24,000 nucleotides of DNA from Lutibacter oricola. Its GTDB lineage: Bacteria; Bacteroidota; Bacteroidia; Flavobacteriales; Flavobacteriaceae. How positions within the stretch are numbered: position 1 is the stretch's first letter; every line of letters starts with the position of its first letter. The stretch spans positions 486,786-510,785 of the forward strand of contig NZ_FNNJ01000002.1 of the NCBI RefSeq assembly GCF_900106565.1, read 5' to 3'. Positions 5,559-20,606 of the stretch are shown here, piece by piece. Position numbers and translations under genes: made by a program. The notes under the pieces were generated by a model, which ran no database searches, was not told where the DNA came from, and saw nothing but the letters and a program-made list of their open reading frames with translations.

Positions 5559-7076
5559 GTGAAAAACACACAGCCAGCAACATTTAAAAACAAAAAGAAA
5601 AGTGCAGTAATTAATCTTGAAAAAGGAAAACTACCGCCACAAGCTCTTGATTTGGAAGAAGCCGTTTTAGGAGCAATGATGATTGACAAGAAAGGTGTTG
5701 ATGATGTTATTGACATTTTAAATGATGATGTTTTTTATAAGGAATCTCATCAATTAATTTACAATGCAATTTTTACATTGTTTCAAAATTCTGAGCCAAT
5801 TGACTTATTGTCAGTTTCTAATCAGTTACGAAAAGATGGTAATTTAGAAGCTGCCGGAGGTGATTTTTACATTGTAAACCTTACTCAAAAGGTATCTTCA
5901 TCTGCACATATAGAATTTCACGCACGTATTATTCTTCAAAAATATATTCAAAGAAGATTAATTTCAATTTCTTCAGAAATTATTGAAGAAGCTTATGATG
6001 AAACCGTGGATGTTTTTGACTTGTTAGATGATGCAGAGGCAAAATTATTCGAAGTAACACAAGGAAACTTAAAGAAAGGGTCTGAAGATGCTGAAGGACT
6101 TGTAAACCAAGCAATTAAAAAGATTGAGGAAATATCTAAAAAGCAGGGTATGAGTGGTATAGCTACCGGTTTTACTCGTTTAGATGAATTAACTTCTGGT
6201 TGGCAACCTTCTGATTTAGTTATTCTTGCCGCTCGTCCTGGTATGGGAAAAACAGCATTTGTAATGTCTATGGCAAAAAATATGGCTATTGATTTTAATG
6301 AGCCAGTTGCAATTTTTTCTTTAGAGATGTCATCAGTACAATTAATTACACGTATGATTTCTAGTGAAACCGGTATTTCATCTGGAAAACTTAGAAAAGG
6401 TAGTTTAGAACGTCACGAATGGGAGCAATTAAATGTTAAAGTTAAAAACTTATCTAAAGCTCCAATATTTATAGATGACACACCATCTTTATCAATTTTT
6501 GATTTACGTGCAAAAGCTAGACGTTTAGCATCGCAACACGGAATTAAGATAATTATTATTGATTATTTGCAATTAATGACTGCCGGTAATGCAGCTGGAG
6601 GAAATCGTGAGCAAGAAATTTCTATGATTTCTCGAAACTTAAAAGCATTAGCAAAAGAATTAAATATTCCGGTTATAGCACTTTCTCAGCTGTCTCGTGC
6701 GGTTGAAACACGTGGAGGAAGTAAAAGACCTTTATTATCCGATTTACGTGAATCCGGTGCAATTGAACAAGATGCGGATATTGTGTCGTTTATTTTTAGA
6801 CCTGAATATTATGGTTTAACAGAATGGGATGATGATGAACGTTCTCCTTGTGAAGGTCAAGCGGAGTTTATTTTAGCAAAGCATAGAAATGGTGGTTTAG
6901 ATAATATTAGATTGAAATTTACAGGGCATTTAGCATTGTTTAGCGATTTAGATGATGGATTTGGTAATGAATTCCAATCTAAAATGAATAGTGCAATTGA
7001 AGAGAGTTCTGTATCTCCTTCTGATGCTTTTGACCCACCACCAAGCCAAGGTAATGATGATGGTGTTCCGTTTTAA
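5559..7076 (+). CDS. dnaB: Replicative DNA helicase DnaB
   Basis: 505-aa ORF with a GTG start at 5559. It has the N-terminal LPPQALDLEEAVLGAMMID motif, Walker A (ARPGMGKTAF), Walker B (IIIIDYLQLM), SQLSRAVE and the RESGAIEQDADIV motif. Confidence 0.95.
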   Translation: MKNTQPATFKNKKKSAVINLEKGKLPPQALDLEEAVLGAMMIDKKGVDDVIDILNDDVFYKESHQLIYNAIFTLFQNSEPIDLLSVSNQLRKDGNLEAAGGDFYIVNLTQKVSSSAHIEFHARIILQKYIQRRLISISSEIIEEAYDETVDVFDLLDDAEAKLFEVTQGNLKKGSEDAEGLVNQAIKKIEEISKKQGMSGIATGFTRLDELTSGWQPSDLVILAARPGMGKTAFVMSMAKNMAIDFNEPVAIFSLEMSSVQLITRMISSETGISSGKLRKGSLERHEWEQLNVKVKNLSKAPIFIDDTPSLSIFDLRAKARRLASQHGIKIIIIDYLQLMTAGNAAGGNREQEISMISRNLKALAKELNIPVIALSQLSRAVETRGGSKRPLLSDLRESGAIEQDADIVSFIFRPEYYGLTEWDDDERSPCEGQAEFILAKHRNGGLDNIRLKFTGHLALFSDLDDGFGNEFQSKMNSAIEESSVSPSDAFDPPPSQGNDDGVPF

Positions 7077-8370
7077 AAACAACATAAATAAAAACAATAA
7101 ACTATCTGTATTATCAGTAATATGGACGGTTCTTTTATTATTTGCTACCCAAATATCTCTAGCGTCGTTCATTTTAATCCCTATGGATGATGTAACGCAG
7201 ACAAATCATTTAAAAGCTTACGGTATTACATATTGGTCTTTAAACAAAGGTAATAAGGCAAAATGGTTGTTAAATTATGAAGGAGGTTCATTTCTACTAG
7301 AAGATAATGAAGCTACTAGAAATGAATGTAAAATAAGAGGTGTAACATTTAATGTTATTTCTGATACTGAAGCAGCTCAAATTTTAGCAGAAATTGCGAG
7401 TCCTTCAAAAAATATGGAAGCTGTTGTTTTAGAAAAAGCTCCAAAAATTGCGGTGTATTCACCAAAAAATAAAATGCCTTGGGATGATGCTGTAACAATG
7501 GTGTTAACCTATGCCGAAATTCCATTTGATGTTGTATATGATACAGAAGTGTTAGAAGAAAAATTATTGCTGTATGAGTGGTTGCACTTACATCACGAGG
7601 ATTTTACGGGTCAATATGGTAAGTTTTATGGCTCTTACAGAAGAGCGCCTTGGTATATAGAACAAAAGAAAAATGCAGAAAAATTAGCAACTAGTTTAGG
7701 GTATAAAAAAGTTTCAGAAGAAAAATTAGCTGTGGCCTTAAAAATACGAGATTTTGTAATTGGAGGTGGATTTATGTTTGCAATGTGTTCGGCTACTGAA
7801 AGTTTTGATATTGCACTTTCTGCAGAAGGAACCGATATTTGTGAGACTATGTTTGACGGAGATCCTTCGGAATTAGATTATCACAATCATATAGATTTCA
7901 ACAAAACCTTTGCTTTTAAAAATTATACATTAGTAAAAAACCCAGAACAATACGAGTTCTCTTCGATAGATATGTCTATGAAAAGAAAAGGAATTAGGCG
8001 TACAGCAGATTATTTTTCATTAAAGGAATACTCAGCTAAATGGGATCCAATTCCAACTATGCTTTGTCAAAACCATACTATGCTTGTTAAAGGTTTTATG
8101 GGGCAAACAACATCTTTCGAAAGAGAATCTGTCAAGTCTAACGTGTTAGTAATGGGTGAAGTAGAATCTAATAAAGAGGCTCGTTATATTCACGGTGTAA
8201 AAGGAAAAGGAATGTTTACTTTTTATGGTGGACACGATCCAGAAGACTATCAGCATAGAGTAGGAGATCCAAAAACTGAATTAGATTTACATCCAAATTC
8301 TCCAGGTTACAGACTAATTTTAAATAATGTTTTATTTCCAGCCGCAAAAAAGAAAAAGCAAAAAACTTAA
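7054..8370 (+). CDS. Conserved secreted protein of unknown function, possibly with a class-I glutamine-amidotransferase-like fold; homologues are sometimes labelled 'asparagine synthetase B'
   Basis: The track ORF starts at 6991 inside dnaB. I place the start at the ATG triplet cluster 7054-7062 (MMMVFRFKNNINKNNK). That start is followed by a hydrophobic h-region and an SLA|SF-type signal peptidase site. The GGGFMFAMCSATES stretch resembles a nucleophile elbow. The functional assignment is weak. Confidence 0.6.
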   Translation: MMMVFRFKNNINKNNKLSVLSVIWTVLLLFATQISLASFILIPMDDVTQTNHLKAYGITYWSLNKGNKAKWLLNYEGGSFLLEDNEATRNECKIRGVTFNVISDTEAAQILAEIASPSKNMEAVVLEKAPKIAVYSPKNKMPWDDAVTMVLTYAEIPFDVVYDTEVLEEKLLLYEWLHLHHEDFTGQYGKFYGSYRRAPWYIEQKKNAEKLATSLGYKKVSEEKLAVALKIRDFVIGGGFMFAMCSATESFDIALSAEGTDICETMFDGDPSELDYHNHIDFNKTFAFKNYTLVKNPEQYEFSSIDMSMKRKGIRRTADYFSLKEYSAKWDPIPTMLCQNHTMLVKGFMGQTTSFERESVKSNVLVMGEVESNKEARYIHGVKGKGMFTFYGGHDPEDYQHRVGDPKTELDLHPNSPGYRLILNNVLFPAAKKKKQKT

Positions 8371-10619: not shown

Positions 10620-11683
10620 GCTAAATAATAATCTAAAGCATCAATTAAAAGATTTTTTTCAACTTTACAATCAAACTTATATTTTTCGTAATCAGTAAGT
10701 AATACAAAGTTTACTTGGCCACCAACATTTTTCTTATCGTGAATTAAGTATTCCAAAATTGGTTCGTAATCCTCTTTTATAATTGGAGCTTTCGGATAAA
10801 TTTGTAGTAATTGATTTTTAATATATTCTAGGTTTTTAGTTGGAAAACCAAGTAGTTTATCTGATAGATAAGCTTCAGTAATCATACCTATAGCAATAGC
10901 TTCGCCGTGAGTTAATTTTTCTTTAGCATCACTATCTAAAAAGTACGATTCAATTGCGTGCCCTAAAGTATGACCGTAATTTAAAACTTTACGTATTCCA
11001 CCTTCTCTAGGGTCTTCTGTCACAACTTCATTTTTAATTTCAATAGAACGGTGAATTAAACCTTCAATATTACTGATGGAAAGTTCATCAAAATCATTAA
11101 CGTTGTTCCAAATATTAACATCGTAAGTAAGTCCGTATTTAATAATTTCAGCTAAACCAGAACGTAATTCTCTTTCGGTAATAGTATGCAAAAATAATGG
11201 ATCTATTAAAACCATTTCAGGGTCAGAAAATAATCCTATCTGATTTTTTAAAACACCCAAATCAACACCGGTTTTTCCACCAACAGAAGCATCAACCATA
11301 CTTAATAGCGTAGTTGGAATATTTACAAAAGAAATACCTCTTTTAAAAGTTGAAGCTACAAAACCACCTAAATCTGTAATAACACCACCACCAAGGTTTA
11401 TAAGTAAGCTTTTTCTGTCAGCTCCTAACTCGGTTAAAGCATTCCAGACACCAGTACAAGTGTCTAAATTTTTATTCTCTTCACCAGCCTCAATTTCAAT
11501 TATTTCAATAGCCTTTGTTGTAGCTATTTGTTGAAGTAAAATAGGTAAGCAATTTTCATTCGTATTTTCATCAACTAGAATAAAAATTGTTGATGGATTT
11601 TTTTGCAAAATTAAGTCGTTTAATTTAGCGTAAGCTTCCTCTTTAAAATTAACAAAGTAGTTATTTGATAATATTGGTGTCAT
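10616..11683 (-). CDS. aroB: 3-dehydroquinate synthase
   Basis: Carries the glycine-rich NAD motif GGGVITDLGGFVASTFKRG, the GGKTGVD motif and metal-binding histidines (GHTLGHAIE). The track ORF begins at a TTG (11704). I prefer the in-frame ATG at 11683 (MTPILSNNY...). Confidence 0.9.
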   Translation of the reverse strand: MTPILSNNYFVNFKEEAYAKLNDLILQKNPSTIFILVDENTNENCLPILLQQIATTKAIEIIEIEAGEENKNLDTCTGVWNALTELGADRKSLLINLGGGVITDLGGFVASTFKRGISFVNIPTTLLSMVDASVGGKTGVDLGVLKNQIGLFSDPEMVLIDPLFLHTITERELRSGLAEIIKYGLTYDVNIWNNVNDFDELSISNIEGLIHRSIEIKNEVVTEDPREGGIRKVLNYGHTLGHAIESYFLDSDAKEKLTHGEAIAIGMITEAYLSDKLLGFPTKNLEYIKNQLLQIYPKAPIIKEDYEPILEYLIHDKKNVGGQVNFVLLTDYEKYKFDCKVEKNLLIDALDYYLA

Positions 11684-11744
11684 TTTGGATAAAATTTGCC
11701 GCAAATTAAACAGAAAAAAACAAATTAATAAATATTTTGTGAAG

Positions 11745-11752
11745 TATATTTG
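11745..11752 (+). promoter_or_regulatory. Bacteroidota -7 promoter box candidate for the proline dehydrogenase gene
   Basis: Exact TATATTTG (TAnnTTTG) 18 nt upstream of the ATG at 11770. Confidence 0.35.
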
Positions 11753-11769
11753 TTTAAAGACAGTTTATA

Positions 11770-12936
11770 ATGGATAAAATATTTAATAACACCGAAATAG
11801 CCTTTGCGTTAAAGACTAACGTTGAGTTAGATAGAGCTTTCTATTTATTTGAAATGATAAAACGAGAACCTTTAGTAAAAATTGGTACTGTAATGACCAA
11901 GTTTGCTTTAAAAACCCACTTACCTGTTGAAGGAATTATAAGGGCTACAGTTTTTGATCATTTTTGTGGTGGAGTTACTGAAGAAGATTGTATGACTGTT
12001 ATTGAAAAAATGTACACTAAAAGAGTACATTCTGTATTAGATTATTCTGCTGAAGGAAAAGAAGACGAGCAAATGTTTGATTTAACAATGGAAAAAACGT
12101 TAAACAACATTAAGTTTGGTAAAGAAAAGAATAGTGTGCCTTTTGCTGTATTTAAGCCTAGTGGATTTGGACGATTTAAAATTTATCAGAAAATTACAGA
12201 AGGAAAAGAACTTGATGCACACGAAACTGTAGAGTGGAAGCGTATAAAAGAACGTTATGATATTGTTTGCAAAGCTGCTTTTGATAGAGATGTTCCTTTG
12301 TTAATAGATGCAGAAGAAAGCTGGATGCAAACTGCAGCTGATGATTTAATTGAAGAAATGATGATGAAATACAATAAAACAAAAGTTATTGTATTTGGAA
12401 CACTTCAATTATATCGTTGGGATAGATTAGACTATCTTAAAAGCCTTCATAATAGAGCAAATGAACAAGGCTTTAAAATAGGTATGAAGCTAGTTAGAGG
12501 TGCTTATATGGAAAAAGAGCGCGAACGCGCAGAGAAAAAAGGTTATAAATCTCCTATTTGTGCTACAAAGCAAGACACAGATAATATGTATAATGAAGTA
12601 ATGACGTATATGTTTAAAAACATTGATAATATGGCGTTATTTGCTGGTACTCATAATGAAGAAAGTTCTTATTTATTAATGGATTTATTAGCTAAATCTG
12701 GTGTAGATAAGGACGATACTAGAGTATGGTTTGGGCAATTATATGGTATGAGTGATCATATTAGTTACAATTTATCTTCACACAATTATAATGTAGCCAA
12801 ATATTTACCTTATGGCCCCGTAAGAGATGTTATGCCGTATTTAATTAGAAGGGCAGAAGAGAATACATCCGTTGCAGGGCAAACAAGTAGAGAGCTAAAT
12901 TTACTAAAAACAGAGAGAAAACGACGAAAGTTATAA
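11770..12936 (+). CDS. Proline dehydrogenase family protein (monofunctional, PutA-type catalytic barrel)
   Basis: 388-aa ORF. Sequence blocks such as FDHFCGG, SVLDYSAEG, IDAEESWMQ, KLVRGAYMEKER, FAGTHNE and YLIRRAEENTS match the stand-alone ProDH family. Confidence 0.8.
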   Translation: MDKIFNNTEIAFALKTNVELDRAFYLFEMIKREPLVKIGTVMTKFALKTHLPVEGIIRATVFDHFCGGVTEEDCMTVIEKMYTKRVHSVLDYSAEGKEDEQMFDLTMEKTLNNIKFGKEKNSVPFAVFKPSGFGRFKIYQKITEGKELDAHETVEWKRIKERYDIVCKAAFDRDVPLLIDAEESWMQTAADDLIEEMMMKYNKTKVIVFGTLQLYRWDRLDYLKSLHNRANEQGFKIGMKLVRGAYMEKERERAEKKGYKSPICATKQDTDNMYNEVMTYMFKNIDNMALFAGTHNEESSYLLMDLLAKSGVDKDDTRVWFGQLYGMSDHISYNLSSHNYNVAKYLPYGPVRDVMPYLIRRAEENTSVAGQTSRELNLLKTERKRRKL

Positions 12937-13108
12937 GGTAAAACTAAAAAGAGGTTAATATTTACACCTTAAGAAATACTAACATTAACACTTTCTTACA
13001 ATTCTTAATCTTTTAATGTTGTTGAAAATTCGAATTTTGAAACTTTACTTTTATACTAAAGTATGGAATTAAAATAATTCAATTTTATGAAGAATTAGTA
13101 GTTTTCAG

Positions 13109-14431
13109 TTAATCTTCGTCCTCTAAAGCGCGTTCTAAAAGCTTATCATTAAAGTTTTTAGAGCCTTTGGCACCTAATTTTTTAATGTTTTCCACTTTTC
13201 GAATTAGGTTACCATTACCAGTTAATTTTTTCATAGTTCCATCATAAGAGCCTTGCACAGTTTTTAGCTGATTTCCAACCTTAATAAGGTCGTTTGTTAA
13301 ATTCACAAATTGATCGTACAATCTACCCGCTTGTAATGCTATGTCTTGTGCGTTTCTTTGTTGTTTTTCATTATTCCACATACTATCAATAGTACGTAAA
13401 GTAGCTAAAAGCGTAGTTGGTGTAACAATAACTATATTTTTCTCAAATGCTTTGTTATACAGTTGGTTATCTTTATTCAGTGCAGCTGCAAACGCAGGCT
13501 CAATAGGTATAAATAACAATACAAAATCAGGAGAATCAATATCATATATATCTTGATATTTCTTTTCGCTTAATTGTTCAATATGTCTTTTTAAAGAGTT
13601 TACGTGTTCTTTTATTGCAATTTCTTTAGTTTCATCGGTATCAGCATTTACATATTGCTCATAAGCAGTAAGTGAAACTTTAGAATCAATAATCATCTTT
13701 TTTTCATCTGGTAAATGAATTACCACATCAGGTAGTATTCTTTTTCCTTCTTCATTTGTAAAGCTTTGTTGTACAAAATACTCGCTATCTTTCTCTAAAC
13801 CAGATTTTTCCAAAACACGTTCTAATACTAATTCTCCCCAGTTTCCTTGGGTTTTACTATCTCCTTTTAATGCTTTGGTTAAATTAATAGCCTCTTTACT
13901 CATTTGTAAATTCAGCTCTTTTAAACCAAGTAGTTGTTCTTTTAAAGCAGAGTGCATCCCTATACTTTCCTTTTGGGTGTCTTCAACTTTCTTTTCAAAT
14001 GTTTGAATTTTTTCTTGAAGCGGATTTAATATAGATTTTATGTTTTCTTTGTTCTGTTCTGTAAACTTAGACGATTTTTCTTCTAGTATTTTATTAGCTA
14101 AAATTTCAAAATCCTTCGTAAATTTTTCTTGTAGTTTTGAAACTTCTTCTTTATTTGAATCTAATTTTTCTTGTAAAGAATTTAATGCAGAATTTCGTTC
14201 AGCTAGAGTAATATCTAATTGATGTTTCTCTCCTGAAACTGATTCAATTGTGTGTTTTAACTCTTTAATAGTGTTAAAATTAGTGTCTTTTTCTTGAAGT
14301 AATAGTTTGCTTTTAGTTTCAAGTTCAGAAATTACTTTCTCATAACTATTTTTGGTTAAAAGTTTACCAATAACATATCCAATTACAGCAAAAAGAACTG
14401 CAATAATTCCAAAAATTAAATAGTTGTTCAT
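13109..14431 (-). CDS. rmuC: DNA recombination protein RmuC
   Basis: 440-aa ORF with an N-terminal transmembrane helix and a long coiled-coil. The C-terminal RmuC nuclease-like domain shows GNWGELVLERVLE...PDVVIHLP...IIDSKVSLTAY...FVLLFIP. Confidence 0.85.
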   Translation of the reverse strand: MNNYLIFGIIAVLFAVIGYVIGKLLTKNSYEKVISELETKSKLLLQEKDTNFNTIKELKHTIESVSGEKHQLDITLAERNSALNSLQEKLDSNKEEVSKLQEKFTKDFEILANKILEEKSSKFTEQNKENIKSILNPLQEKIQTFEKKVEDTQKESIGMHSALKEQLLGLKELNLQMSKEAINLTKALKGDSKTQGNWGELVLERVLEKSGLEKDSEYFVQQSFTNEEGKRILPDVVIHLPDEKKMIIDSKVSLTAYEQYVNADTDETKEIAIKEHVNSLKRHIEQLSEKKYQDIYDIDSPDFVLLFIPIEPAFAAALNKDNQLYNKAFEKNIVIVTPTTLLATLRTIDSMWNNEKQQRNAQDIALQAGRLYDQFVNLTNDLIKVGNQLKTVQGSYDGTMKKLTGNGNLIRKVENIKKLGAKGSKNFNDKLLERALEDED

Positions 14432-14473
14432 ATCGTTTTGTTATTTTGTAAAAGTAAGAAAATATACTAACTC

Positions 14474-15976
14474 TTAATCTTTTTTTGAATTAGAAAATTC
14501 ATACTTCAATATTGTTTTTTGAAGTATTTTCCAATGATTTCTTAATTGTCTTTTTATTTCAGGAGCATCGAGCTCATCTGCAGCTCTATATGCATATCGT
14601 AAATAATTGCCTCTAAATTTTCGCTGAAAAGGAGTTGTAATTGCTTTTTCTTTTACAAACTCGGTTCTTGTTGAAGGTATAAGTCTTGATTTAACACCTT
14701 TAAAACTATATAACCTATATATTTTCCGTTTAAAAATAGGGGCGTCATCTAATAAATATTTTTCTTTTTGAATTTCAACTCTTTTATGTTTTCTTTTTAT
14801 AGATTCTTTCATTGTTCTATAAAACTTTGCTAAGTTCTTAGATTTTAGTAAAGTTTGATATCCATAAAACTCAAAACCTAAATAATTTAAAGGAATATTT
14901 TTAATTAAGCTATCTTCTTCAATTTTATAGGATTGCAATCTATTGTTATCAATTTTGAAAAGTGATTTTTCTGTTTTCTCAAATGATACTTTTAAATCAA
15001 TCTTATTAATTTCCTCTTCAACAACCTTTTCAATGATTGAAATTTGATCTTTTTTGCATATAACAACAATATCGTCAGAATATCTTCTATAAAATACGTT
15101 ATGTTTTAAAGTTAATCTTTCAATAATAGCTTCATCAAAAGAAAGCATATAAATATTAGCTAAAAGTGCGCTAATAGGTAATCCCTGTGGAATTCCAATT
15201 AATTTACCATCCTTTTTAACTTGGTTTTTATGAATTATTATATCAGAATCAATTAAATCTTTGATACTTTCAAAAAAAGTGTGTTTTCCTATTCTTTTTA
15301 ATCTAGCTAATTCTTTTTCATCAAAATGACCATTTTTAGTTTTCAAATCTTTCAGTTTTACATAAGAAAACCTTGTTATAGCTTTGAATAAATTGTAATG
15401 ATCTTTTGGTAACGTTTTAGTTCCTAATAATTTTGACCAAGCAAGTTTTAACTTTTTATGATTTAAGGTAGGGAAGAAGTTCTCAATATCTAAAACTAAG
15501 GCAACACAGTTTTGTCTTTTTTTAATCTCATTAAATACATCTTTAGCAAAGTGGACATTGTTTTTGAATTTAACTTTATCATCTGTTTCAATTTGTCTAT
15601 AAGCTGTAATTGAATTAGATAACTCAAAGTTTTTACTTAAATATTCTTCGTATTTGGGAGTAATTATTTGTTGTGCATAATATGAATATATGTGGGCATC
15701 AATATGAGAGGCATATAGAATCTTTCTTATTTTTGAATTAGAAACTATTTTATCATTTTCAATTTTTTTATGAGAACGTTTTATTTCTCCATTAAAATTA
15801 GATGTTTTATACCTTCTTTGCTTAATTTCTTTATAAATAAGAGGTGAAAAAGAATGCTTCGTAACTTTTTTAGAATTTGAAACATAATATAATACTCTTT
15901 TTCTAACTGATAATGGTGTTTTGTTAGAAAAATGAGGATATCCTCTGTCTTTAAACCAGTCTTTTTCTTTTATCAT
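14474..15976 (-). CDS. Stand-alone reverse transcriptase (RNA-directed DNA polymerase), UG/Abi or defence-associated (DRT-like) type; clade not assignable by eye
   Basis: All RT motifs are intact. Motif A is LVLDIENFFPTLNH (DIENFF at 15473..15490). Motif B is IPQGLPISALLANIYM (15171..15194). Motif C is RRYSDDIVVI (YSDD at 15071..15082). Motif E is NYLGFEF. The preferred start is the ATG at 15976 (MIKEKDWFKDRGYPHF), giving 500 aa. The track ORF extends 20 low-complexity codons further, to 16036. There is no maturase X/En domain, no retron VTG motif and no fused effector domain. Confidence 0.9.
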   Translation of the reverse strand: MIKEKDWFKDRGYPHFSNKTPLSVRKRVLYYVSNSKKVTKHSFSPLIYKEIKQRRYKTSNFNGEIKRSHKKIENDKIVSNSKIRKILYASHIDAHIYSYYAQQIITPKYEEYLSKNFELSNSITAYRQIETDDKVKFKNNVHFAKDVFNEIKKRQNCVALVLDIENFFPTLNHKKLKLAWSKLLGTKTLPKDHYNLFKAITRFSYVKLKDLKTKNGHFDEKELARLKRIGKHTFFESIKDLIDSDIIIHKNQVKKDGKLIGIPQGLPISALLANIYMLSFDEAIIERLTLKHNVFYRRYSDDIVVICKKDQISIIEKVVEEEINKIDLKVSFEKTEKSLFKIDNNRLQSYKIEEDSLIKNIPLNYLGFEFYGYQTLLKSKNLAKFYRTMKESIKRKHKRVEIQKEKYLLDDAPIFKRKIYRLYSFKGVKSRLIPSTRTEFVKEKAITTPFQRKFRGNYLRYAYRAADELDAPEIKRQLRNHWKILQKTILKYEFSNSKKD

Positions 15977-16447
15977 AGCTTTAAATAAAAAGTAAAAAAG
16001 TTCTCGCACGTATTTACAACAAAATAAAACGTACATCTTTTGAAGATTGAACCATTAGCCAAATTCTCGACTCACGCTGCATTTATACGTTAATATATCC
16101 TAATGAACTAGAAATAATATCAATTATGAAGCAAATAAGTTTAATTACCTCTGTGATACAAACAGTTCTCCAATTTCTTGACCTAAAGGTGAAAGAATGG
16201 CATAGAATTTGTAACTTTGTATTTGAATTAGTTTCTTATGCAACGGTGCTTAAGACATTAATTCAAATGATTACATCTTACCTAATCACCATATTTATTA
16301 ACCCTTTTATAATAAAAGGTTGGATTAAGTGATTGAAATTAATCAATACAATAGTTCAACAAATGTTTTATTTTCTTTAACTAAAGAACTTTCTTACTTT
16401 ATACTGTAAATTTAAGATTTTTAATTAATTTTATAGAAAAATTTGGT
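15977..16447 (-). ncRNA. Candidate RT-associated non-coding RNA/leader region (hypothetical; boundaries unknown)
   Basis: A 471-bp gap sits directly upstream of the RT in a genome whose other intergenic gaps are 3-250 bp. It contains several short hairpins: 16035-16047, 16175-16197, 16303-16319 and 16373-16388. The composite stem 16245-16254/16281-16290 has one position that is G.U only in the RT-sense transcript and A.C in the opposite sense. It also shows atypical stop-codon depletion. I recognised no consensus promoter. Confidence 0.3.
16126..16332 (+). CDS. Hypothetical 68-aa hydrophobic small protein (possible membrane peptide), antisense to the RT leader; may not be a real gene
   Basis: ORF MKQISLITSVIQTVLQFLDL...ICNFVFELVSYATVLKTLIQMITSYLITIFINPFII. 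Its frame is stop-free for 93 codons (16051..16329) in DNA of roughly 25% GC. I found no recognisable promoter or RBS. Confidence 0.25.
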   Translation: MKQISLITSVIQTVLQFLDLKVKEWHRICNFVFELVSYATVLKTLIQMITSYLITIFINPFIIKGWIK

Positions 16448-17203
16448 ATGAAAAATAAATATTCAGTAGGAAGTATTGTTACTTTCAAAACACACCCGTT
16501 ATTTAATGATTTCAGAATACAAGGAGATGGAAAATATGTACCTCCTGTAATGATGGTTAAAGAAGTTTTTATTGAAAATAATAAGAAAAGAACTCACGAT
16601 GAAGAAACTGGTAAAAAAATATCTGATAAGGTTAAATATACTTGTGTTTATTTTGATGATGATAAAAGTCAATTTACCGAAAACACAATTTATGAGAGTT
16701 TTTTAAGATCGTATAAAAAATTAAAAATAGAAAGAATTTCAGAAATTGGTGAATTAAGAGATGATACTGATACAATTATTAAAGAGATAAAAAGTTATTT
16801 TAAAAAACCATTAGTATATAAATTTGGTGGAATAGTTAGGTTTATCACAAAAAAAATAGAAATTTATAAGAAGCGTTCATCAAAAAAAATAACAGAAAAA
16901 AAAGGAGAAATAGAAAAGGATAATATTAAATCAACAATTCAATATGTTGTAAACTATGCTTCTCCTGACTTTGTAATGTGTGGTTTAAAGAAAAATGATG
17001 ATAAAAATTTATTTTATGAAAACGGTCAAGTAAAGAAACAAGTTTCGGAAACACTATTAAAAGTTAAGTGGTTTAATCCAATTCAGAAAAAATTTAGCGA
17101 ACAATTTTTACCAATTGAATTTTTTACAGATAGAATGAATTTTAAATCAGAAGTTTTAGAGGAGGAATTAGTATCAAAAGAGGTAACACCAAATCAAAGT
17201 TAG
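16448..17203 (+). CDS. Hypothetical lysine-rich protein with two tandem YodC/DUF2158-like small beta-barrel modules
   Basis: 251-aa ORF with a visible internal duplication. YSVGSIVTFKTHPLF...PPVMMVKEV...KYTCVYFDDDKSQFTENTIYESFL aligns with YKFGGIVRFITKKIE...SPDFVMCGLKK...LKVKWFNPIQKKFSEQFLPIEFF. This follows the G-x-V-x-hydrophobic...P-x-M-x-V...C/V-x-W/Y-F...F...L pattern of DUF2158. Confidence 0.7.
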   Translation: MKNKYSVGSIVTFKTHPLFNDFRIQGDGKYVPPVMMVKEVFIENNKKRTHDEETGKKISDKVKYTCVYFDDDKSQFTENTIYESFLRSYKKLKIERISEIGELRDDTDTIIKEIKSYFKKPLVYKFGGIVRFITKKIEIYKKRSSKKITEKKGEIEKDNIKSTIQYVVNYASPDFVMCGLKKNDDKNLFYENGQVKKQVSETLLKVKWFNPIQKKFSEQFLPIEFFTDRMNFKSEVLEEELVSKEVTPNQS

Positions 17204-17222
17204 GATTATTATTTATTGTTTT

Positions 17223-17230
17223 TATCTTTG
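17223..17230 (+). promoter_or_regulatory. Bacteroidota -7 promoter box candidate for the acyltransferase gene
   Basis: Exact TATCTTTG (TAnnTTTG) 44 nt upstream of the ATG at 17274. Confidence 0.4.
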
Positions 17231-17273
17231 CCGACCAATGTATCAAATTATTTACGCATTGAGTTATTAACAT

Positions 17274-17819
17274 ATGAAAACAATTACAAAATTTATATTT
17301 CATACTTTATTTGGTTGGAAAACAGTTGGCTTGTTACCAACAGATATAAAAAAGTATATAATTATTGGTGCACCTCATACCCATTGGCAAGATTTTTTTT
17401 TAGGTTTAGCTATAAAACTTTCTCAAAATTCACCTGCAAACTACATCGGTAAAGCTTCATTATTTAAACCACCTTTTGGATTTATTTTTAAAGCTTTAGG
17501 CGGTACTCCTGTTGATAGAAGTAAAAGCGCTAATAGAGTAGATGCTATTATTGATATTTTTAAAGAAAAAGAACAGTTTATATTAGCCTTATCTCCTGAA
17601 GGCACAAGAAAAAGAAACGACAAATGGAAAACAGGCTTTTACCATATTGCTAAAGGCGCAAACGTACCAATTGTTATGATGACTTTTGATTTTGGTAAAA
17701 AGCAGGTTAAACTTTCTGAACCTTATTATTTAACCAATGATATGGAAAAAGATATGAACTTTATTTATGATTTTTATAGAGGAGTAAAAGGTAAAATCCC
17801 TGAGTATTTCAACTTATAA
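17274..17819 (+). CDS. 1-acyl-sn-glycerol-3-phosphate acyltransferase family (PlsC-like) protein
   Basis: 181-aa ORF with the acyltransferase H-x4-D block (APHTHWQD) and the EGTR block (LSPEGTRKR). Confidence 0.75.
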   Translation: MKTITKFIFHTLFGWKTVGLLPTDIKKYIIIGAPHTHWQDFFLGLAIKLSQNSPANYIGKASLFKPPFGFIFKALGGTPVDRSKSANRVDAIIDIFKEKEQFILALSPEGTRKRNDKWKTGFYHIAKGANVPIVMMTFDFGKKQVKLSEPYYLTNDMEKDMNFIYDFYRGVKGKIPEYFNL

Positions 17820-17822
17820 AAC

Positions 17823-17855
17823 AAAAAAACCTACTAAAAATAGTAGGTTTTTTTT
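17823..17855. terminator. Bidirectional rho-independent terminator between the convergent acyltransferase and gcvT genes
   Basis: The sequence is A7-CCTACTA-aaaa-TAGTAGG-T8. The 7-bp G/C-containing stem can be extended by A/T pairs, and a U-run follows the hairpin on either strand. Confidence 0.8.
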
Positions 17856-17870
17856 ATGTCTATTTTAAAA

Positions 17871-18953
17871 TTACCCTTTATAAAAAGGCAATCTAACAAC
17901 TTTAGCTTTTAAAGTTTTCTTTCTTACTTGAATATATATTTCAGTATCTCTTTTAGAAAATTCTTTAGCAACATAACCTAAACCAATAGCTTTTTTTAGA
18001 GAAGGACTCATAGTTCCAGAAGTAACTTCTCCTATTTCATTTCCATCAGCATCAACAATAGCGTAGTGCTGACGAGGAATTCCTCTATCAATCATTTCAA
18101 ATGCCACTAATTTTTTAGTTACACCTTCTTCTTTTTGCTTTTTTAAAGCTTCAGAATTAGTAAAGTTCTTCGTAAACTTAGTAATCCACCCTAAACCAGC
18201 TTCAATAGGCGATGTTGTGTCGTTTATATCGTTACCGTATAAGCAATAACCCATTTCTAAACGTAAAGTATCACGAGCAGCTAAACCAATTGGTTTTATT
18301 CCGAAGTCTTTACCAGCTTCAAAAACTTTATTCCAAACTTGTTCAACTTCACTGTTTTTACAGTAAATTTCAAAACCACCAGAACCAGTATAACCCGTTG
18401 CCGAAATAATTACGTGATCAATACCAGCAAAATCGGCAACCTTAAATGTGTAAAACTTAATAGCCGATAAATCTTCCGAAGTTAAACTTTGCATTGCTTC
18501 AACAGCTTTTGGACCTTGAATAGCTAATAAAGAATAACCTTCAGAGATGTTTTTCATCTCAGCATTCATAGAATTATGAACAGAAATCCAGTTCCAATCT
18601 TTTTCTATATTAGAAGCATTTACAACTAATAAATAAGTTTCTTCTTTTACTCTGTAAACAATTAAATCGTCTACAATACCACCTTTATCGTTAGGTAAAC
18701 AACTATATTGTGCTTCTCCAATTTCTAATTTAGAAGCATCATTAGATGTTACAAACTGTATTAATTCTAATGCAAACTCTCCTTCAATTAAGAATTCTCC
18801 CATATGCGAAACATCAAAAACACCAACTCCAGTTCTTACAGTTTCGTGTTCAGCGTTAACTCCTTCATATTGTACTGGCATATTGTAACCAGCAAATGGT
18901 ACCATTTTTGCACCTAATTGTTCATGTATATGCGATAATGCAGTATTTTTCAT
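17871..18953 (-). CDS. gcvT: Glycine cleavage system aminomethyltransferase (T protein)
   Basis: 360-aa ORF whose sequence is typical of GcvT throughout: [37 protein letters not shown] and [11 protein letters not shown]. Confidence 0.95.
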
Positions 18954-19110
18954 TGTAGTTATTTTTTAGGTTCGCTAAATTACTAATAATTGTAATATTT
19001 AATCTGTATTAAGTTATCATATCTCTATCAATAACTTTCTTTTTAAACAAAGAATTAAAGATAGATGTAGAAATGTGTTAGTCTAAACAAAGTAAGCTTC
19101 AATATTTTTC

Positions 19111-19118
19111 TATATTTG
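19111..19118 (+). promoter_or_regulatory. Bacteroidota -7 promoter box candidate for the aminopeptidase gene
   Basis: Exact TATATTTG (TAnnTTTG) 28 nt upstream of the ATG at 19146. Confidence 0.4.
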
Positions 19119-19145
19119 AGCTAAATTTATTGGTAATATTCAAAA

Positions 19146-20606
19146 ATGAAGAAATTTCAACTACTATTAGTCTTAACTTTATGTTTTTTATTGAATGTAA
19201 ATGCTCAGCACCAACATTTACCTCAAGATTATTTAAGTAAAGACTTTCATAAAGAAAGAAGAGAAGCTTTACGAAACTTAATGCCAAAAAATAGTGTTGC
19301 AGTATTTTTCGCAAACCCAGTAAGAAATAGAGCAAATGATGTTAATTTTCATTACCATCAGGATCCAAATTTTTATTATTTAACAGGTTCTAACGAGCCA
19401 CATTCTTTGGTTTTAATTTTTAAAGAAAATCAAACTGTAAATGGAAATGTTTTTAATGAAGTTTTATTTGTTCAAGAGCGAAATGAAACAGCAGAGCTTT
19501 GGGATGGAAAAAGGCTTGGAATAAAAGGCGCACAAGATGATTTAGGTTTTAGAGTTGCATATAATGGTAAGGACTTTAAAAGCTTTAATCTAGACTTTTC
19601 AAAATTTAACAAGGTGCTTTTTGAAGCTTTTAATAACGATGTTAGAAACTCTAATAACACAGCAGATTTATTTGATTTAATTAAAACATTTAAAAGTAAA
19701 ATCTCATACAGTTTATTAAATGCTGAAACTGTAAAAAGTGATGATAATTTTTACAGTAGTAAAAAATCGAATTTAAACTTGTTGCCATATTATATGGCCA
19801 CGTTACGAGAAATTAAAACAAAAGAAGAATTAAAACTATTAAGAAAAGCAGTTGATATATCTGCAGTTGGACAAATTGAGGTAATGAAAGCAATGCACCC
19901 AAAAATGTCTGAATTAGAAGTGCAAGGAATTCACGAATTTGTTTATAAAAAATACGGAGCAGAATACGAAGGTTACCCATCAATTGTTGGAGCAGGAGGT
20001 AATGGTTGTATTTTACACTATATAGAGAATAATAAAACCGAAATTGAGGATGGTAAGTTAGTTTTAATGGATTTAGGAGCAGAATACCACGGCTACACGG
20101 CAGATGTTACAAGAACAATACCTACAAACGGAAAATTTTCTAAAGAACAAAAAGCTATTTACGATTTGGTATTTAAAGCACAAACCGAAGCAATTAAAGC
20201 TTGTAAAGAAGGTGCACATTTTGGGAAACTAACAATTGTTTCGCAAAAAATAATAAATAAAGGTTTAGCTGAATTAGGTATTATTTCTAATGAAAAAGAG
20301 TATCATACATATTTTCCTCACGGAGCATCGCATCACATTGGTTTAGATGTTCACGACACTTCAAATTATGGCAAACTTAAAGAAAATATGGTAATTACCG
20401 TAGAACCTGGTATTTACATTCCAAAAGGTAGTGATTGCGATGAAAAATGGTGGGATATTGCTGTTAGAATTGAAGATGATATTTTAATTACTAAAAATGG
20501 ACCAGAAAACTTATCTGCAAGAGCGCCAAGAACTTCTGAGGCTATTGAAAAAATGATGCTACAGCCTAGTGTACTTGATGGTTTTTTACTTCCTCAATTA
20601 GATTAG
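19146..20606 (+). CDS. pepP: Secreted Xaa-Pro aminopeptidase (M24B, aminopeptidase P family)
   Basis: 486-aa ORF with an N-terminal signal peptide (MKKFQLLLVLTLCFLLNVNAQ). It has an AMP_N-type N-domain (FHYHQDPNFYYLTG). M24 metal ligands appear in LMDLGAEYHGYTADVTRT, HGASHHIGLDVHD, EPGIY and RIEDD. Confidence 0.85.
   Translation: MKKFQLLLVLTLCFLLNVNAQHQHLPQDYLSKDFHKERREALRNLMPKNSVAVFFANPVRNRANDVNFHYHQDPNFYYLTGSNEPHSLVLIFKENQTVNGNVFNEVLFVQERNETAELWDGKRLGIKGAQDDLGFRVAYNGKDFKSFNLDFSKFNKVLFEAFNNDVRNSNNTADLFDLIKTFKSKISYSLLNAETVKSDDNFYSSKKSNLNLLPYYMATLREIKTKEELKLLRKAVDISAVGQIEVMKAMHPKMSELEVQGIHEFVYKKYGAEYEGYPSIVGAGGNGCILHYIENNKTEIEDGKLVLMDLGAEYHGYTADVTRTIPTNGKFSKEQKAIYDLVFKAQTEAIKACKEGAHFGKLTIVSQKIINKGLAELGIISNEKEYHTYFPHGASHHIGLDVHDTSNYGKLKENMVITVEPGIYIPKGSDCDEKWWDIAVRIEDDILITKNGPENLSARAPRTSEAIEKMMLQPSVLDGFLLPQLD

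What the first reader, a model, noticed from the sequence alone, without database searches (positions are those of the whole stretch)
14474..15976. Intact stand-alone reverse transcriptase of the UG/Abi (defence-associated) kind inside a block of core genes
The sequence shows a 500-aa protein with every catalytic RT motif intact (DIENFF, PQGLPIS, YSDD, LGFEF). There is a ~100-aa N-terminal extension beginning KDWFKDRGYPHF. An ~80-aa insertion lies between the motif-A/2 region (LDIENFFPTLNH) and the PQG motif, and a basic ~150-aa helical C-terminal tail follows. It has none of the hallmarks of the well-described RT classes. There is no group II intron RNA around it, with only 42 nt downstream. 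It has no maturase/endonuclease domains, no retron VTG/NAxxH motifs and no visible DGR TR/VR pair. By elimination it belongs with the defence-associated 'unknown group'/Abi RTs (DRT families). A single-gene RT plus a long upstream non-coding region is the layout of DRT2 (UG2) and DRT9 (UG28). The clade is my inference, not something I can read off the sequence.
Basis: partly seen in the sequence, partly recalled or inferred. Interest (0 to 1): 0.85.

Follow-up and report, generated by a model that had tools for sequence, protein, structure and literature searches.

The report
DRT2 reverse transcriptase with gene-building RNA
The reverse transcriptase is real and belongs to the known antiviral DRT2 family, but it is not stand-alone: it has two partner genes and an upstream structured RNA whose central 186 bases look like a template for building a repetitive toxic gene, as in the Klebsiella DRT2 system.

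Summary
The 500-aa RT at 14474..15976 (-) is intact. It is a DRT2/UG2 enzyme: PADLOC Drt2 E=1e-135 and solved KpnDRT2 structures E~4e-53 over the full length. It is not stand-alone. The divergent upstream gene matches the catalogued RT-associated YodC protein (E=3e-92), and the downstream gene matches RT-associated RmuC (E=6e-228). This is "variant 2" of UG2 in Mestre et al. 2022.

The 471-nt gap upstream of the RT encodes a ~412-nt structured RNA on the RT strand. Across 36 Flavobacteriaceae loci, 60 proposed pairs are 91% paired and 43 show compensatory changes. Its hypervariable centre is bounded by two GUA triplets. The distance between them is a multiple of 3 in 33 of 38 loci (186 nt here). 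In each of those, the head-to-tail concatemer of the reverse complement has exactly one stop-free frame with an in-frame ATG (0.55 of 31 expected by chance). These are the sequence hallmarks of the DRT2 "Neo" mechanism, in a divergent, uncharacterised clade.

A Bacteroidetes-type promoter split across the repeat junction is visible in about a third of relatives, but not in this window. The locus sits among housekeeping genes and is syntenic across many genera. No cDNA or defence phenotype could be tested.

The parts
14474..15976 (-). DRT2/UG2 reverse transcriptase, 500 aa, catalytic YSDD intact
   Evidence: PADLOC Drt2 PDLC03757 E=1e-135. NCBIfam Drt2 scores 374.5 bits against a cutoff of 390. 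PDB 9c0i/9lje KpnDRT2 E~4e-53 over residues 6-459. More than 2400 homologues; the best 120 are 70-88% identical and come from many Flavobacteriaceae genera.
15989..16400 (-). Predicted structured ncRNA (~412 nt) on the RT strand. A 5' scaffold and a 3' scaffold enclose the template. The RNA is closed by helices P1 (16400-16384 with 16005-15989), P1b and P2.
   Evidence: Alignment of 36 loci. RNAalifold gives 43 pairs. Pair counts: 96.9% paired, 30 pairs with compensatory changes, 0/500 shuffles reach this, and slid controls give 30-50%. Adding P1b gives 60 pairs and 43 compensatory. Many G-U pairs fix the strand. The single-sequence fold is -97 kcal/mol, z=-4.8.
16407..16414 (-). Candidate -7 box (TAAATTTA, close to the Bacteroidetes TAnnTTTG) of the ncRNA/RT promoter, ending 6 nt upstream of the 5' end of P1
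   Evidence: These columns are invariant or nearly invariant in all 36 loci: A35 and T39 invariant; T34, T38, T40 and A41 at >=90%. The promoter consensus is from my own knowledge (Bayley 2000; Chen 2007). Inference only.
16089..16274 (-). Hypervariable template region, 186 nt, beginning with GUA-1 (16274-16272). Its reverse complement, concatenated head to tail, has one stop-free frame of 62 codons per unit.
   Evidence: The unit length is a multiple of 3 in 31/36 loci plus L040 and L042. P(a shuffled W unit has an open frame)=0.0075. The sense strand is never open.
16086..16088 (-). GUA-2, the triplet just 3' of the template that repeats GUA-1. It is the proposed re-annealing site for template jumping, analogous to ACA-2 of KpnDRT2.
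   Evidence: Identity between the two boundaries is 1.00/0.81/0.81 at exactly these three positions and at background level on either side. The ACA analogy is from PMC12039810.
16221..16268 (-). [quoted passage not shown] The structure is conserved across loci while the sequence is not.
   Evidence: ViennaRNA folds of the first 70 nt of each template give a mean z of -2.75 (W: -4.9), against -0.87 for the next 70 nt. The hairpin is also present in the MFE fold of the whole RNA.
16126..16332 (+). Antisense ORF as it reads on the genome (68 aa). Its ATG at 16126 is the in-frame start at unit offset 37. Beyond 16274 it leaves the template and reads into the scaffold.
   Evidence: It has no family match. 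A gene caller annotated the equivalent ORF in L040 as an 80-aa gene.
16448..17203 (+). RT-associated YodC-like protein, 251 aa, made of two beta-rich barrel domains. It is transcribed divergently from the ncRNA/RT.
   Evidence: PADLOC RTasYodC E=2.9e-92. A relative lies next to the RT in 36 of the 37 loci that hold a full-length RT: divergent in 35, on the same strand in L036, and undetected only in the distant Persicobacter locus L045. AF2 model pLDDT 87.7. Foldseek against PDB gave only weak SH3/Tudor/KOW-like matches. No Pfam hit.
13109..14431 (-). RmuC with an N-terminal TM helix, 42 nt downstream of the RT on the same strand. No terminator lies between them, so the two genes are probably co-transcribed.
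   Evidence: Pfam RmuC E=2.6e-108. PADLOC RTasRmuC E=5.8e-228. NCBIfam PRK10361 full length, E=7e-100, but 335 bits against a cutoff of 810. No terminator-like site between RT and RmuC. A relative follows the RT in 28 of the 35 reference-genome loci with a full-length RT. It is retained in L039, where the RT module is deleted.

Best explanation
This is a chromosomal DRT2 (UG2) retroelement of the YodC/RmuC-associated variant. One transcript probably carries a ~412-nt structured ncRNA, the RT and rmuC. By homology with Klebsiella DRT2, the RT binds the rigid 5' and 3' scaffolds of the RNA. It reverse-transcribes the loosely held 186-nt central loop, starting next to GUA-2 and ending at GUA-1. 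The cDNA 3' end (TAC) then re-pairs with GUA-2, so the template is copied again and again (rolling-circle reverse transcription). Once made double-stranded, the concatemer carries a repetitive open reading frame of 62 codons per unit that exists only after concatenation. Expression of that frame is expected to arrest growth of an infected cell (abortive infection).

Shown here: the RT family, the ncRNA structure and its strand, the template boundaries, the multiple-of-3 unit length, the single stop-free antisense frame, and the partner genes with their synteny.

Inferred only: cDNA synthesis, the trigger, second-strand synthesis, transcription and translation of the product, toxicity, and any role for YodC (possibly a nucleic-acid-binding regulator) or RmuC.
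For: RT family: PADLOC Drt2 E=1e-135, with the next family (UG17) at 1e-23. KpnDRT2 structures 9c0i/9lje match at E~4e-53 over the full length.

ncRNA: conserved 5' and 3' blocks flank a hypervariable centre. 43 pairs are 96.9% paired, 30 have compensatory changes, and 0/500 shuffles reach this. An extra helix, P1b, is supported. G-U pairs place the RNA on the RT strand.

Template: the strand antisense to the RT carries a 180-384-nt stop-free frame in all 36 loci, while the sense strand is ordinary. The GUA-to-GUA distance is a multiple of 3 in 31/36 loci (binomial 9e-11). All 31 concatemers have exactly one open frame, against 0.55 expected. Two further loci obey the rule. All three frames relative to the conserved flanks are used, so the flanks are not conserved for coding. 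The microhomology between the boundaries is exactly 3 nt. Every open unit has an in-frame ATG.

Promoter: a Bacteroidetes-type promoter split across the junction (TTTG/TTG, then 19-22 nt, then TAnnTTTG at unit offset 1-2) is seen in 9 of the 11 loci that carry the -7-like box there.

Published DRT2 features used for comparison are from PMC12039810 and bioRxiv 10.1101/2024.05.08.593200.
Against: No experimental data exist for this clade. In the window's own unit I could not find a promoter for the neo-sense strand. Substitutions within template families show no third-codon-position bias (217/203/231), so the peptide sequence itself is not under visible purifying selection. Five related loci have units of 181, 182 or 185 nt and only a finite ORF of 56-58 aa. 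The NCBIfam Drt2 score falls just below its cutoff. The locus is not in a defence island. The RT is better conserved than the neighbouring RmuC. No close relatives were found on plasmids or viral contigs. All of this is unusual for a defence gene.
Confidence: 0.7

Rival explanations
1. The RT and ncRNA do make cDNA, but the system is not a Neo-type abortive-infection device. It would be a domesticated, vertically inherited module whose output acts through YodC and/or RmuC, for example in DNA repair or recombination control or in stress-induced dormancy. The open frame would then be secondary.
For: The locus sits among housekeeping genes. It is syntenic with rmuC across many genera. The RT is more conserved (74.8%) than RmuC (70.1%). 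No close copies are found on plasmids or viral contigs. There is no amino-acid-level constraint on the putative peptide. All three proteins are catalogued as associated with one another.
Against: This reading gives no reason for the stop-free frame, the multiple-of-3 unit length or the in-frame ATG. The module is dispensable: it is deleted in L039 with rmuC kept, and decayed in L038. rmuC is absent downstream in 7 of the 35 reference-genome loci with a full-length RT. Hypervariable templates and divergent YodC classes look like the outcome of an arms race.
Confidence: 0.15
2. The antisense open frame is an ordinary small gene (68 aa here) transcribed from the chromosome in the same direction as YodC. 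The RT has nothing to do with its expression.
For: An ATG-to-stop ORF exists on the genome at 16126..16332. A gene caller annotated the equivalent ORF in L040. An exact TAACTTTG box lies upstream in the same orientation inside the template.
Against: A conventional gene gives no reason for the distance between two conserved non-coding triplets to be a multiple of 3 while the reading frame relative to them varies among loci. It also gives no reason for the segment upstream of the ATG to be stop-free in frame, so that the circular permutation stays open in 31 of the 31 alignment units whose length is a multiple of 3. There is no codon-position bias. The ORF overlaps a covariation-supported RNA on the other strand.
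Confidence: 0.07
3. A stand-alone, single-gene DRT, possibly DRT9-like with protein-primed homopolymer synthesis. The neighbouring genes would be irrelevant.
For: In KpnDRT2 the RT plus its ncRNA is sufficient for defence (PMC9226505). Accessory genes may therefore be dispensable here too.
Against: The Drt2 HMM outscores every other UG family by more than 110 orders of magnitude. A YodC-like gene lies next to the RT in 36 of the 37 loci with a full-length RT. The template architecture is of the DRT2 type, not the DRT9 type.
Confidence: 0.03

Closest known systems
Klebsiella pneumoniae DRT2 (UG2) RT-ncRNA 'Neo' system (Tang et al. 2024; Wilkinson et al. 2024; PDB 9c0i)
   Same: The RT is homologous over its full length. 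A structured ncRNA lies directly upstream on the same strand. The least conserved part is a central template held between a 5' and a 3' scaffold. The template is flanked by a repeated trinucleotide. The unit length is a multiple of 3. The reverse-complement concatemer has a single stop-free frame with an internal ATG. The neo frame is antisense to the ncRNA. In a third of relatives a promoter is split across the junction.
   Different: RT identity is only ~30%, and the RT is 75 aa longer. The ncRNA is ~412 nt against 281 nt, and I saw no sequence resemblance between the two. The unit is 180-192 nt (62 aa) against 111-129 nt (~40 aa). The flanking triplet is GUA rather than ACA. Where a promoter is visible, its elements follow the Bacteroidetes -33/-7 consensus rather than the sigma-70 -35/-10. 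A long hairpin occupies the 5' third of the template. Two associated genes are present (YodC-like and RmuC). The locus sits in a syntenic, core-genome position rather than on mobile elements or in defence islands. Nothing here has been tested experimentally.
UG2 'variant 2' of Mestre et al. 2022 (RT + cluster 315 YodC protein ± cluster 433 TM-RmuC), as encoded in the PADLOC models Drt2, RTasYodC and RTasRmuC
   Same: All three proteins match these models strongly, and the gene order fits the description in PMC9226505. This locus is a member of that variant.
   Different: That work catalogued the gene association and noted an upstream non-coding region. In the library I could search, no paper describes a template, a Neo-type frame or a mechanism for this variant. 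Tang et al. state that Neo annotation was 'more challenging' in divergent DRT2 clades.
DRT10/UG17 and telomerase-like tandem-repeat synthesis
   Same: UG17 is the second-best PADLOC family (E=1e-23). It too is a class 2 UG RT that copies a short ncRNA template repeatedly.
   Different: DRT10 makes short non-coding repeats, is protein-primed, and uses a SLATT effector (abstracts listed). Here the unit is 186 nt with a protein-coding signature, and the RT is clearly UG2.

Membership tests
DRT2 / UG2 | RT sequence belongs to the UG2 clade | tested here: met
   PADLOC Drt2 E=1e-135 and 6e-99, with the next family at 1e-23. KpnDRT2 PDB chains match at E~4e-53 over the full length. Distant plasmid relatives are annotated drt2 by PGAP. 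Caveat: the NCBIfam equivalog scores 374.5 bits, just under its cutoff of 390.
DRT2 / UG2 | Intact catalytic YxDD and RT motifs | tested here: met
   YSDD, PQGLPIS, DIENFF and LGFEF are present in the translation and invariant in 19 homologues.
DRT2 / UG2 | Structured ncRNA immediately upstream of the RT on the same strand | tested here: met
   Covariation-supported helices: 96.9% paired, 30-43 compensatory pairs, 0/500 shuffles. G-U pairs fix the strand. z=-4.8 for the window's own sequence. There is no Rfam family for it.
DRT2 / UG2 | Template flanked by a repeated trinucleotide that allows template jumping (ACA-1/ACA-2 in KpnDRT2) | tested here: met
   A 3-nt repeat sits exactly at the two edges of the hypervariable region, but it is GUA, not ACA. 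Jumping itself was not tested.
DRT2 / UG2 | Unit length divisible by 3, and a single stop-free frame across the junction on the strand antisense to the ncRNA (neo) | tested here: met
   In the window: 186 nt, one open frame, P(shuffle)=0.0075. Across loci: 33/38, with 31 of the 31 alignment units whose length is a multiple of 3 open against 0.55 expected. Five relatives fail.
DRT2 / UG2 | Promoter reconstituted only across the repeat junction | tested here: inconclusive
   None was recognisable in the window's unit. Of 36 related loci, 11 carry TAnnTTTG (0-1 mismatch) at unit offset 1-2, and 9 of these have TTG/TTTG 19-22 nt upstream in the preceding unit. The consensus used is from memory (Bacteroides/Flavobacterium -33/-7).
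DRT2 / UG2 | RT-dependent concatemeric cDNA, toxic Neo protein, phage defence | not testable with these tools
   Needs experiments.
UG2 variant 2 (Mestre 2022) | Adjacent gene with a YodC (COG5475) domain, cluster 315 | tested here: met
   PADLOC RTasYodC E=2.9e-92, covering 1-233 of the protein and 2-219 of the 219-position profile. A relative lies next to the RT in 36 of the 37 loci with a full-length RT. Pfam does not detect DUF2158 directly.
UG2 variant 2 (Mestre 2022) | Optional TM + RmuC gene, cluster 433 | tested here: met
   PADLOC RTasRmuC E=5.8e-228. An N-terminal hydrophobic helix is visible in the translation. However, the protein has the ordinary full-length RmuC architecture, and it stays in place when the RT module is lost. 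The link may therefore be synteny rather than function.
DRT9 / UG28 | RT of the UG28 clade | tested here: not met
   UG28 is not among the 25 best PADLOC families. The Drt2 match is more than 110 orders of magnitude better than any other UG family.
Group II intron RT | Maturase-type RT inside an intron RNA | tested here: not met
   TIGR04416 scores 69.6 bits against a cutoff of 300. No intron RNA appears in the Rfam scan of 13000-18500.
Retron | Retron RT with msr/msd | tested here: not met
   The best retron model scores 57 bits against a cutoff of 235. PADLOC retron RTs score ~1e-11, over the palm motifs only.
DGR | TR/VR repeat pair near the RT | tested here: not met
   Only short, AT-rich, chance-level repeats occur in 11000-20000.

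The most novel reading that the evidence does not exclude
A DRT2 system has become a fixed, syntenic part of the Flavobacteriaceae core genome, with an RT under stronger constraint than its housekeeping neighbour. Its reverse-transcribed segment behaves as a swappable cassette. Scaffolds stay nearly identical between sister species while the template is replaced outright. The same template types recur across genera. Only the 'openness' and the hairpin are selected, not the peptide sequence. This pattern would mean either frequent lateral exchange of templates under diversifying selection, or RT-mediated rewriting of the locus's own template. In both cases YodC and RmuC would act as regulators or processors of the hairpin-rich cDNA.
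Probability: 0.12. Interest if true: 0.8.

Novelty: new variant of a known kind. Interest (0 to 1): 0.6.

Why it matters
[quoted passage not shown] Its discoverers reported that Neo genes were hard to find in divergent clades. This analysis gives explicit, testable coordinates for a Neo-type template in a Bacteroidota clade. The template has a longer unit, a different jump triplet and, in some relatives, the Bacteroidetes promoter grammar. The clade also carries two uncharacterised partner proteins and is present across many marine and freshwater Flavobacteriaceae. If confirmed, the mechanism would be shown to be ancient and adaptable. It would also give a handle on what YodC and RmuC add. Finally, it would warn annotators that these templates get called as 'hypothetical protein' genes.

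Tried and rejected
Rfam scan of 13000-18500 at a permissive threshold: only chance-level hits, mostly on the terminator at 17823-17854, and nothing on the ncRNA.

Codon-position test for protein-level selection on the template: no bias found.

Search for a neo-sense promoter in the window's own unit: nothing convincing. The sigma-70 scan is at chance level, 28 hits against 29.4 expected.

Rescuing the five non-multiple-of-3 loci with alternative boundaries or microhomologies: no consistent solution. Three of them have an in-frame stop just upstream of the ATG.

Extending P1 outward in the alignment: this fails in most sequences because of a bulge or register shift.

Testing whether RT and RmuC co-diverge: only a weak correlation, rho=0.28. 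An earlier version of that script timed out.

Viral-contig and plasmid searches: only relatives at 30-39% identity. The Persicobacter megaplasmid homologue has no YodC neighbour.

DGR-type repeats: none.
Full report
**Observation.**
The start at 15976 (MIKEKDWF) is the real one. The protein is 100% identical to a 500-aa Lutibacter oricola protein, and the homologues share the N-terminus MxKxKDWFKDRGYPHF. All quoted RT motifs are present, and Pfam RVT_1 matches at E=9e-17. The surrounding genes are housekeeping: M48 peptidase, SpoU methylase, DnaB, transketolase, a GT4 glycosyltransferase, AroB, proline dehydrogenase, an acyltransferase, GcvT, Xaa-Pro aminopeptidase and ThrC.

**Family.**
No argument by elimination is needed. 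The RT matches the PADLOC Drt2 models at E=1e-135 and 6e-99, and the next family (UG17) is at 1e-23. It matches the solved Klebsiella DRT2 structures (9c0i, 9lje, 9lv7) at E~1e-53 over residues 6-459. The NCBIfam Drt2 equivalog scores 374.5 bits, just under its cutoff of 390. Group II intron and retron models score far below their cutoffs. No intron RNA and no DGR-type repeats are present. The N-terminal extension, the insertion before PQG and the C-terminal tail all align with KpnDRT2, so they are features of the family.

**Not stand-alone.**
- The divergent 251-aa gene at 16448..17203 matches PADLOC RTasYodC at E=2.9e-92.
- The gene 42 nt downstream (13109..14431) is RmuC. It matches Pfam at E=2.6e-108 and PADLOC RTasRmuC at E=5.8e-228.
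- Mestre et al. 2022 (PMC9226505) describe exactly this layout as the second of three UG2 variants: RT + YodC-domain gene (cluster 315), in some members with a TM-RmuC gene (cluster 433).
- The species-representative genome scan returned 39 loci, 35 of them with a full-length RT. In 34 of those a YodC-like gene is divergent from the RT across a 378-514-nt gap (441-485 nt in all but two). In L036 it lies upstream on the same strand.
- RmuC follows the RT in 28 of those 35 loci.
- The flanks outside this triad change between genera.

**The upstream RNA.**
An alignment of the 36 intergenic regions shows two strongly conserved blocks around a hypervariable centre. RNAalifold predicts 43 pairs. On the alignment they are 96.9% paired. 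Thirty pairs show compensatory changes, none of 500 shuffles reaches the observed values, and sliding the partners drops pairing to 30-50%. A further 10-bp helix that I proposed (P1b) has 8 pairs with compensatory changes. Abundant G-U pairs would be A-C mismatches on the other strand, so the RNA is read in the RT direction.

In window coordinates:
- the RNA runs from about 16400 to 15989;
- it is closed by a 17-bp terminal helix and ends 13 nt before the RT start codon;
- the sequence alone folds at -97 kcal/mol, z=-4.8;
- a nearly invariant TAnnTTTA box ends 6 nt upstream of the 5' end and is a plausible Bacteroidetes -7 element (inference);
- no terminator-like site separates the RNA, the RT and rmuC.

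**The template.**
The hypervariable centre is bounded by two conserved triplets, both GUA. Identity between the two boundaries is 1.00/0.81/0.81 at exactly these three positions and at background level around them. Four results follow.
1. On the strand antisense to the RT, every one of the 36 loci has a stop-free frame of 180-384 nt over this region. The sense strand looks like shuffled sequence.
2. The distance from GUA-1 to GUA-2 is a multiple of 3 in 31 of 36 loci (105, 180, 183, 186, 189 or 192 nt; binomial P=9e-11).
3. In all 31, the head-to-tail concatemer of the reverse complement has exactly one frame without stops, and the sense strand has none.
4. Dinucleotide shuffles give an open frame in 1.8% of cases on average, so 0.55 would be expected against 31 observed. 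For the window itself (186 nt) the figure is 0.75%.

Two more loci fetched from the closest relatives (RT 88% identical) have unrelated templates of 183 and 189 nt that also obey the rule. All three frames relative to the conserved flanks are used. This excludes the idea that an ordinary ORF spans the flanks. Only head-to-tail joining explains why the length must be a multiple of 3. Every open unit has an in-frame ATG; in the window it is at 16126.

These are the features that define the DRT2 Neo mechanism: template between scaffolds, flanking triplets (ACA there), units of 111-129 nt divisible by 3, and a neo frame antisense to the ncRNA (PMC12039810; bioRxiv 10.1101/2024.05.08.593200).

**Differences and gaps.**
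- *Dimensions.* The unit is half as long again as in Klebsiella, the triplet differs, and the ncRNA is ~130 nt longer.
- *Template hairpin.* In most template families the first ~55 nt of the template form a long hairpin whose sequence differs between families. It might favour snap-back priming of the second strand, but this is speculation.
- *Promoter.* A promoter split across the junction is recognisable in only part of the family. Eleven of 36 loci carry TAnnTTTG (0-1 mismatch) at unit offset 1-2, overlapping the GUA. Nine of these have TTG/TTTG 19-22 nt upstream in the preceding unit, and three have the exact TTTG-N20-TAnnTTTG. In the window's own unit I found no convincing promoter.
- *No peptide-level selection.* Within template families, substitutions are spread evenly over codon positions (217/203/231). 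Selection therefore keeps the frame open but does not visibly preserve the peptide.
- *Finite-ORF subclade.* Five loci forming one subclade have units of 181, 182 or 185 nt. Their ORF crosses the junction and stops 4-5 codons later, giving 56-58 aa.

**Evolutionary setting.**
- The best 120 RT homologues are 70-88% identical and come from many Flavobacteriaceae genera.
- Mean pairwise identity among 28 loci is 74.8% for the RT, 70.1% for RmuC and 48.9% for YodC.
- No close relatives were found on viral contigs or plasmids. The best are 30-39% identical, and several of the plasmid ones are annotated drt2.
- The module is nevertheless dispensable. One Lutibacter MAG keeps gcvT, the acyltransferase and rmuC, but only the last 43 RT codons. 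An Aquimarina genome has a frameshifted remnant.
- Template identity is uncoupled from RT identity. Two Mariniflexile species have 92% identical RTs and unrelated templates, whereas one template type recurs in six genera.
- RmuC has the ordinary full-length RmuC architecture. Its link to the RT may be synteny only.

**YodC.**
An AF2 model (pLDDT 87.7) shows two beta-rich domains, mirrored by an internal DNA repeat. Foldseek against PDB gives only weak SH3/Tudor/KOW/PWWP-like matches. Sequence searches find nothing. A nucleic-acid- or protein-binding accessory role is a guess.

**Verdict.**
The finding is a genuine DRT2 system of an already catalogued three-gene variant, so the RT itself is not new. 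What appears new is the evidence that this divergent Bacteroidota clade carries a Neo-type template with its own grammar. I found no paper on this in the searchable library, and it addresses a gap stated by Tang et al.. I put 0.7 on the rolling-circle/Neo mechanism. The main rivals are a domesticated non-Neo function (0.15) and a conventional small gene (0.07).

Noticed in passing
window 6991-8370 (+): A 459-aa GTG-initiated ORF overlaps the 3' end of dnaB. It has no Pfam or NCBIfam match.
   Followed up: partly
window 17823-17854: A perfect 14-bp bidirectional terminator hairpin lies between the acyltransferase gene and gcvT. It attracts several spurious sub-threshold Rfam sRNA hits.
   Followed up: no
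window 16656-16684 and 16995-17023: An internal direct repeat in the YodC-like gene (DDDKSQFTEN / NDDKNLFYEN) mirrors the two beta-barrel domains of the AF2 model. This suggests a tandem domain duplication.
   Followed up: partly
L040:1006-1248 (-): A public gene caller annotated the antisense template ORF as an 80-aa protein. Neo-type templates are likely to sit in databases as 'hypothetical proteins'.
   Followed up: partly
L003, L007, L004, L012, L021 (template regions about 5700-5990): In this subclade the units are 181, 182 or 185 nt. The ORF is finite (56-58 aa), crosses the junction and ends …NTSNNK*. Three of the five loci have an in-frame stop just before the ATG.
   Followed up: partly
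L039:4814-6200; L038:6001-6355: Natural losses of the module. In a Lutibacter MAG, the YodC gene, the ncRNA and all of the RT except its last 43 codons are replaced by ~1.2 kb of unrelated non-coding DNA, while rmuC is kept. Aquimarina agarivorans retains only a frameshifted C-terminal RT fragment.
   Followed up: yes
L036:3038-5544: In a Bacteroidota MAG the YodC-like gene lies upstream on the same strand as the RT. The RNA scaffold is still conserved between them, and the RT is split between two frames.
   Followed up: partly
YodC genes of L001-L035: YodC-like proteins fall into two divergent classes, 35-43% versus 47-86% identical to the window's protein. The classes track neither RT identity nor template family. 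In L031 and L033 the gene is split between two frames.
   Followed up: partly
window 16212-16219 (+): An exact Bacteroidetes -7 box (TAACTTTG) lies inside the template on the YodC/neo-sense strand, without a -33 TTG. It could drive yodC, antisense transcription of the ncRNA, or neo expression.
   Followed up: no
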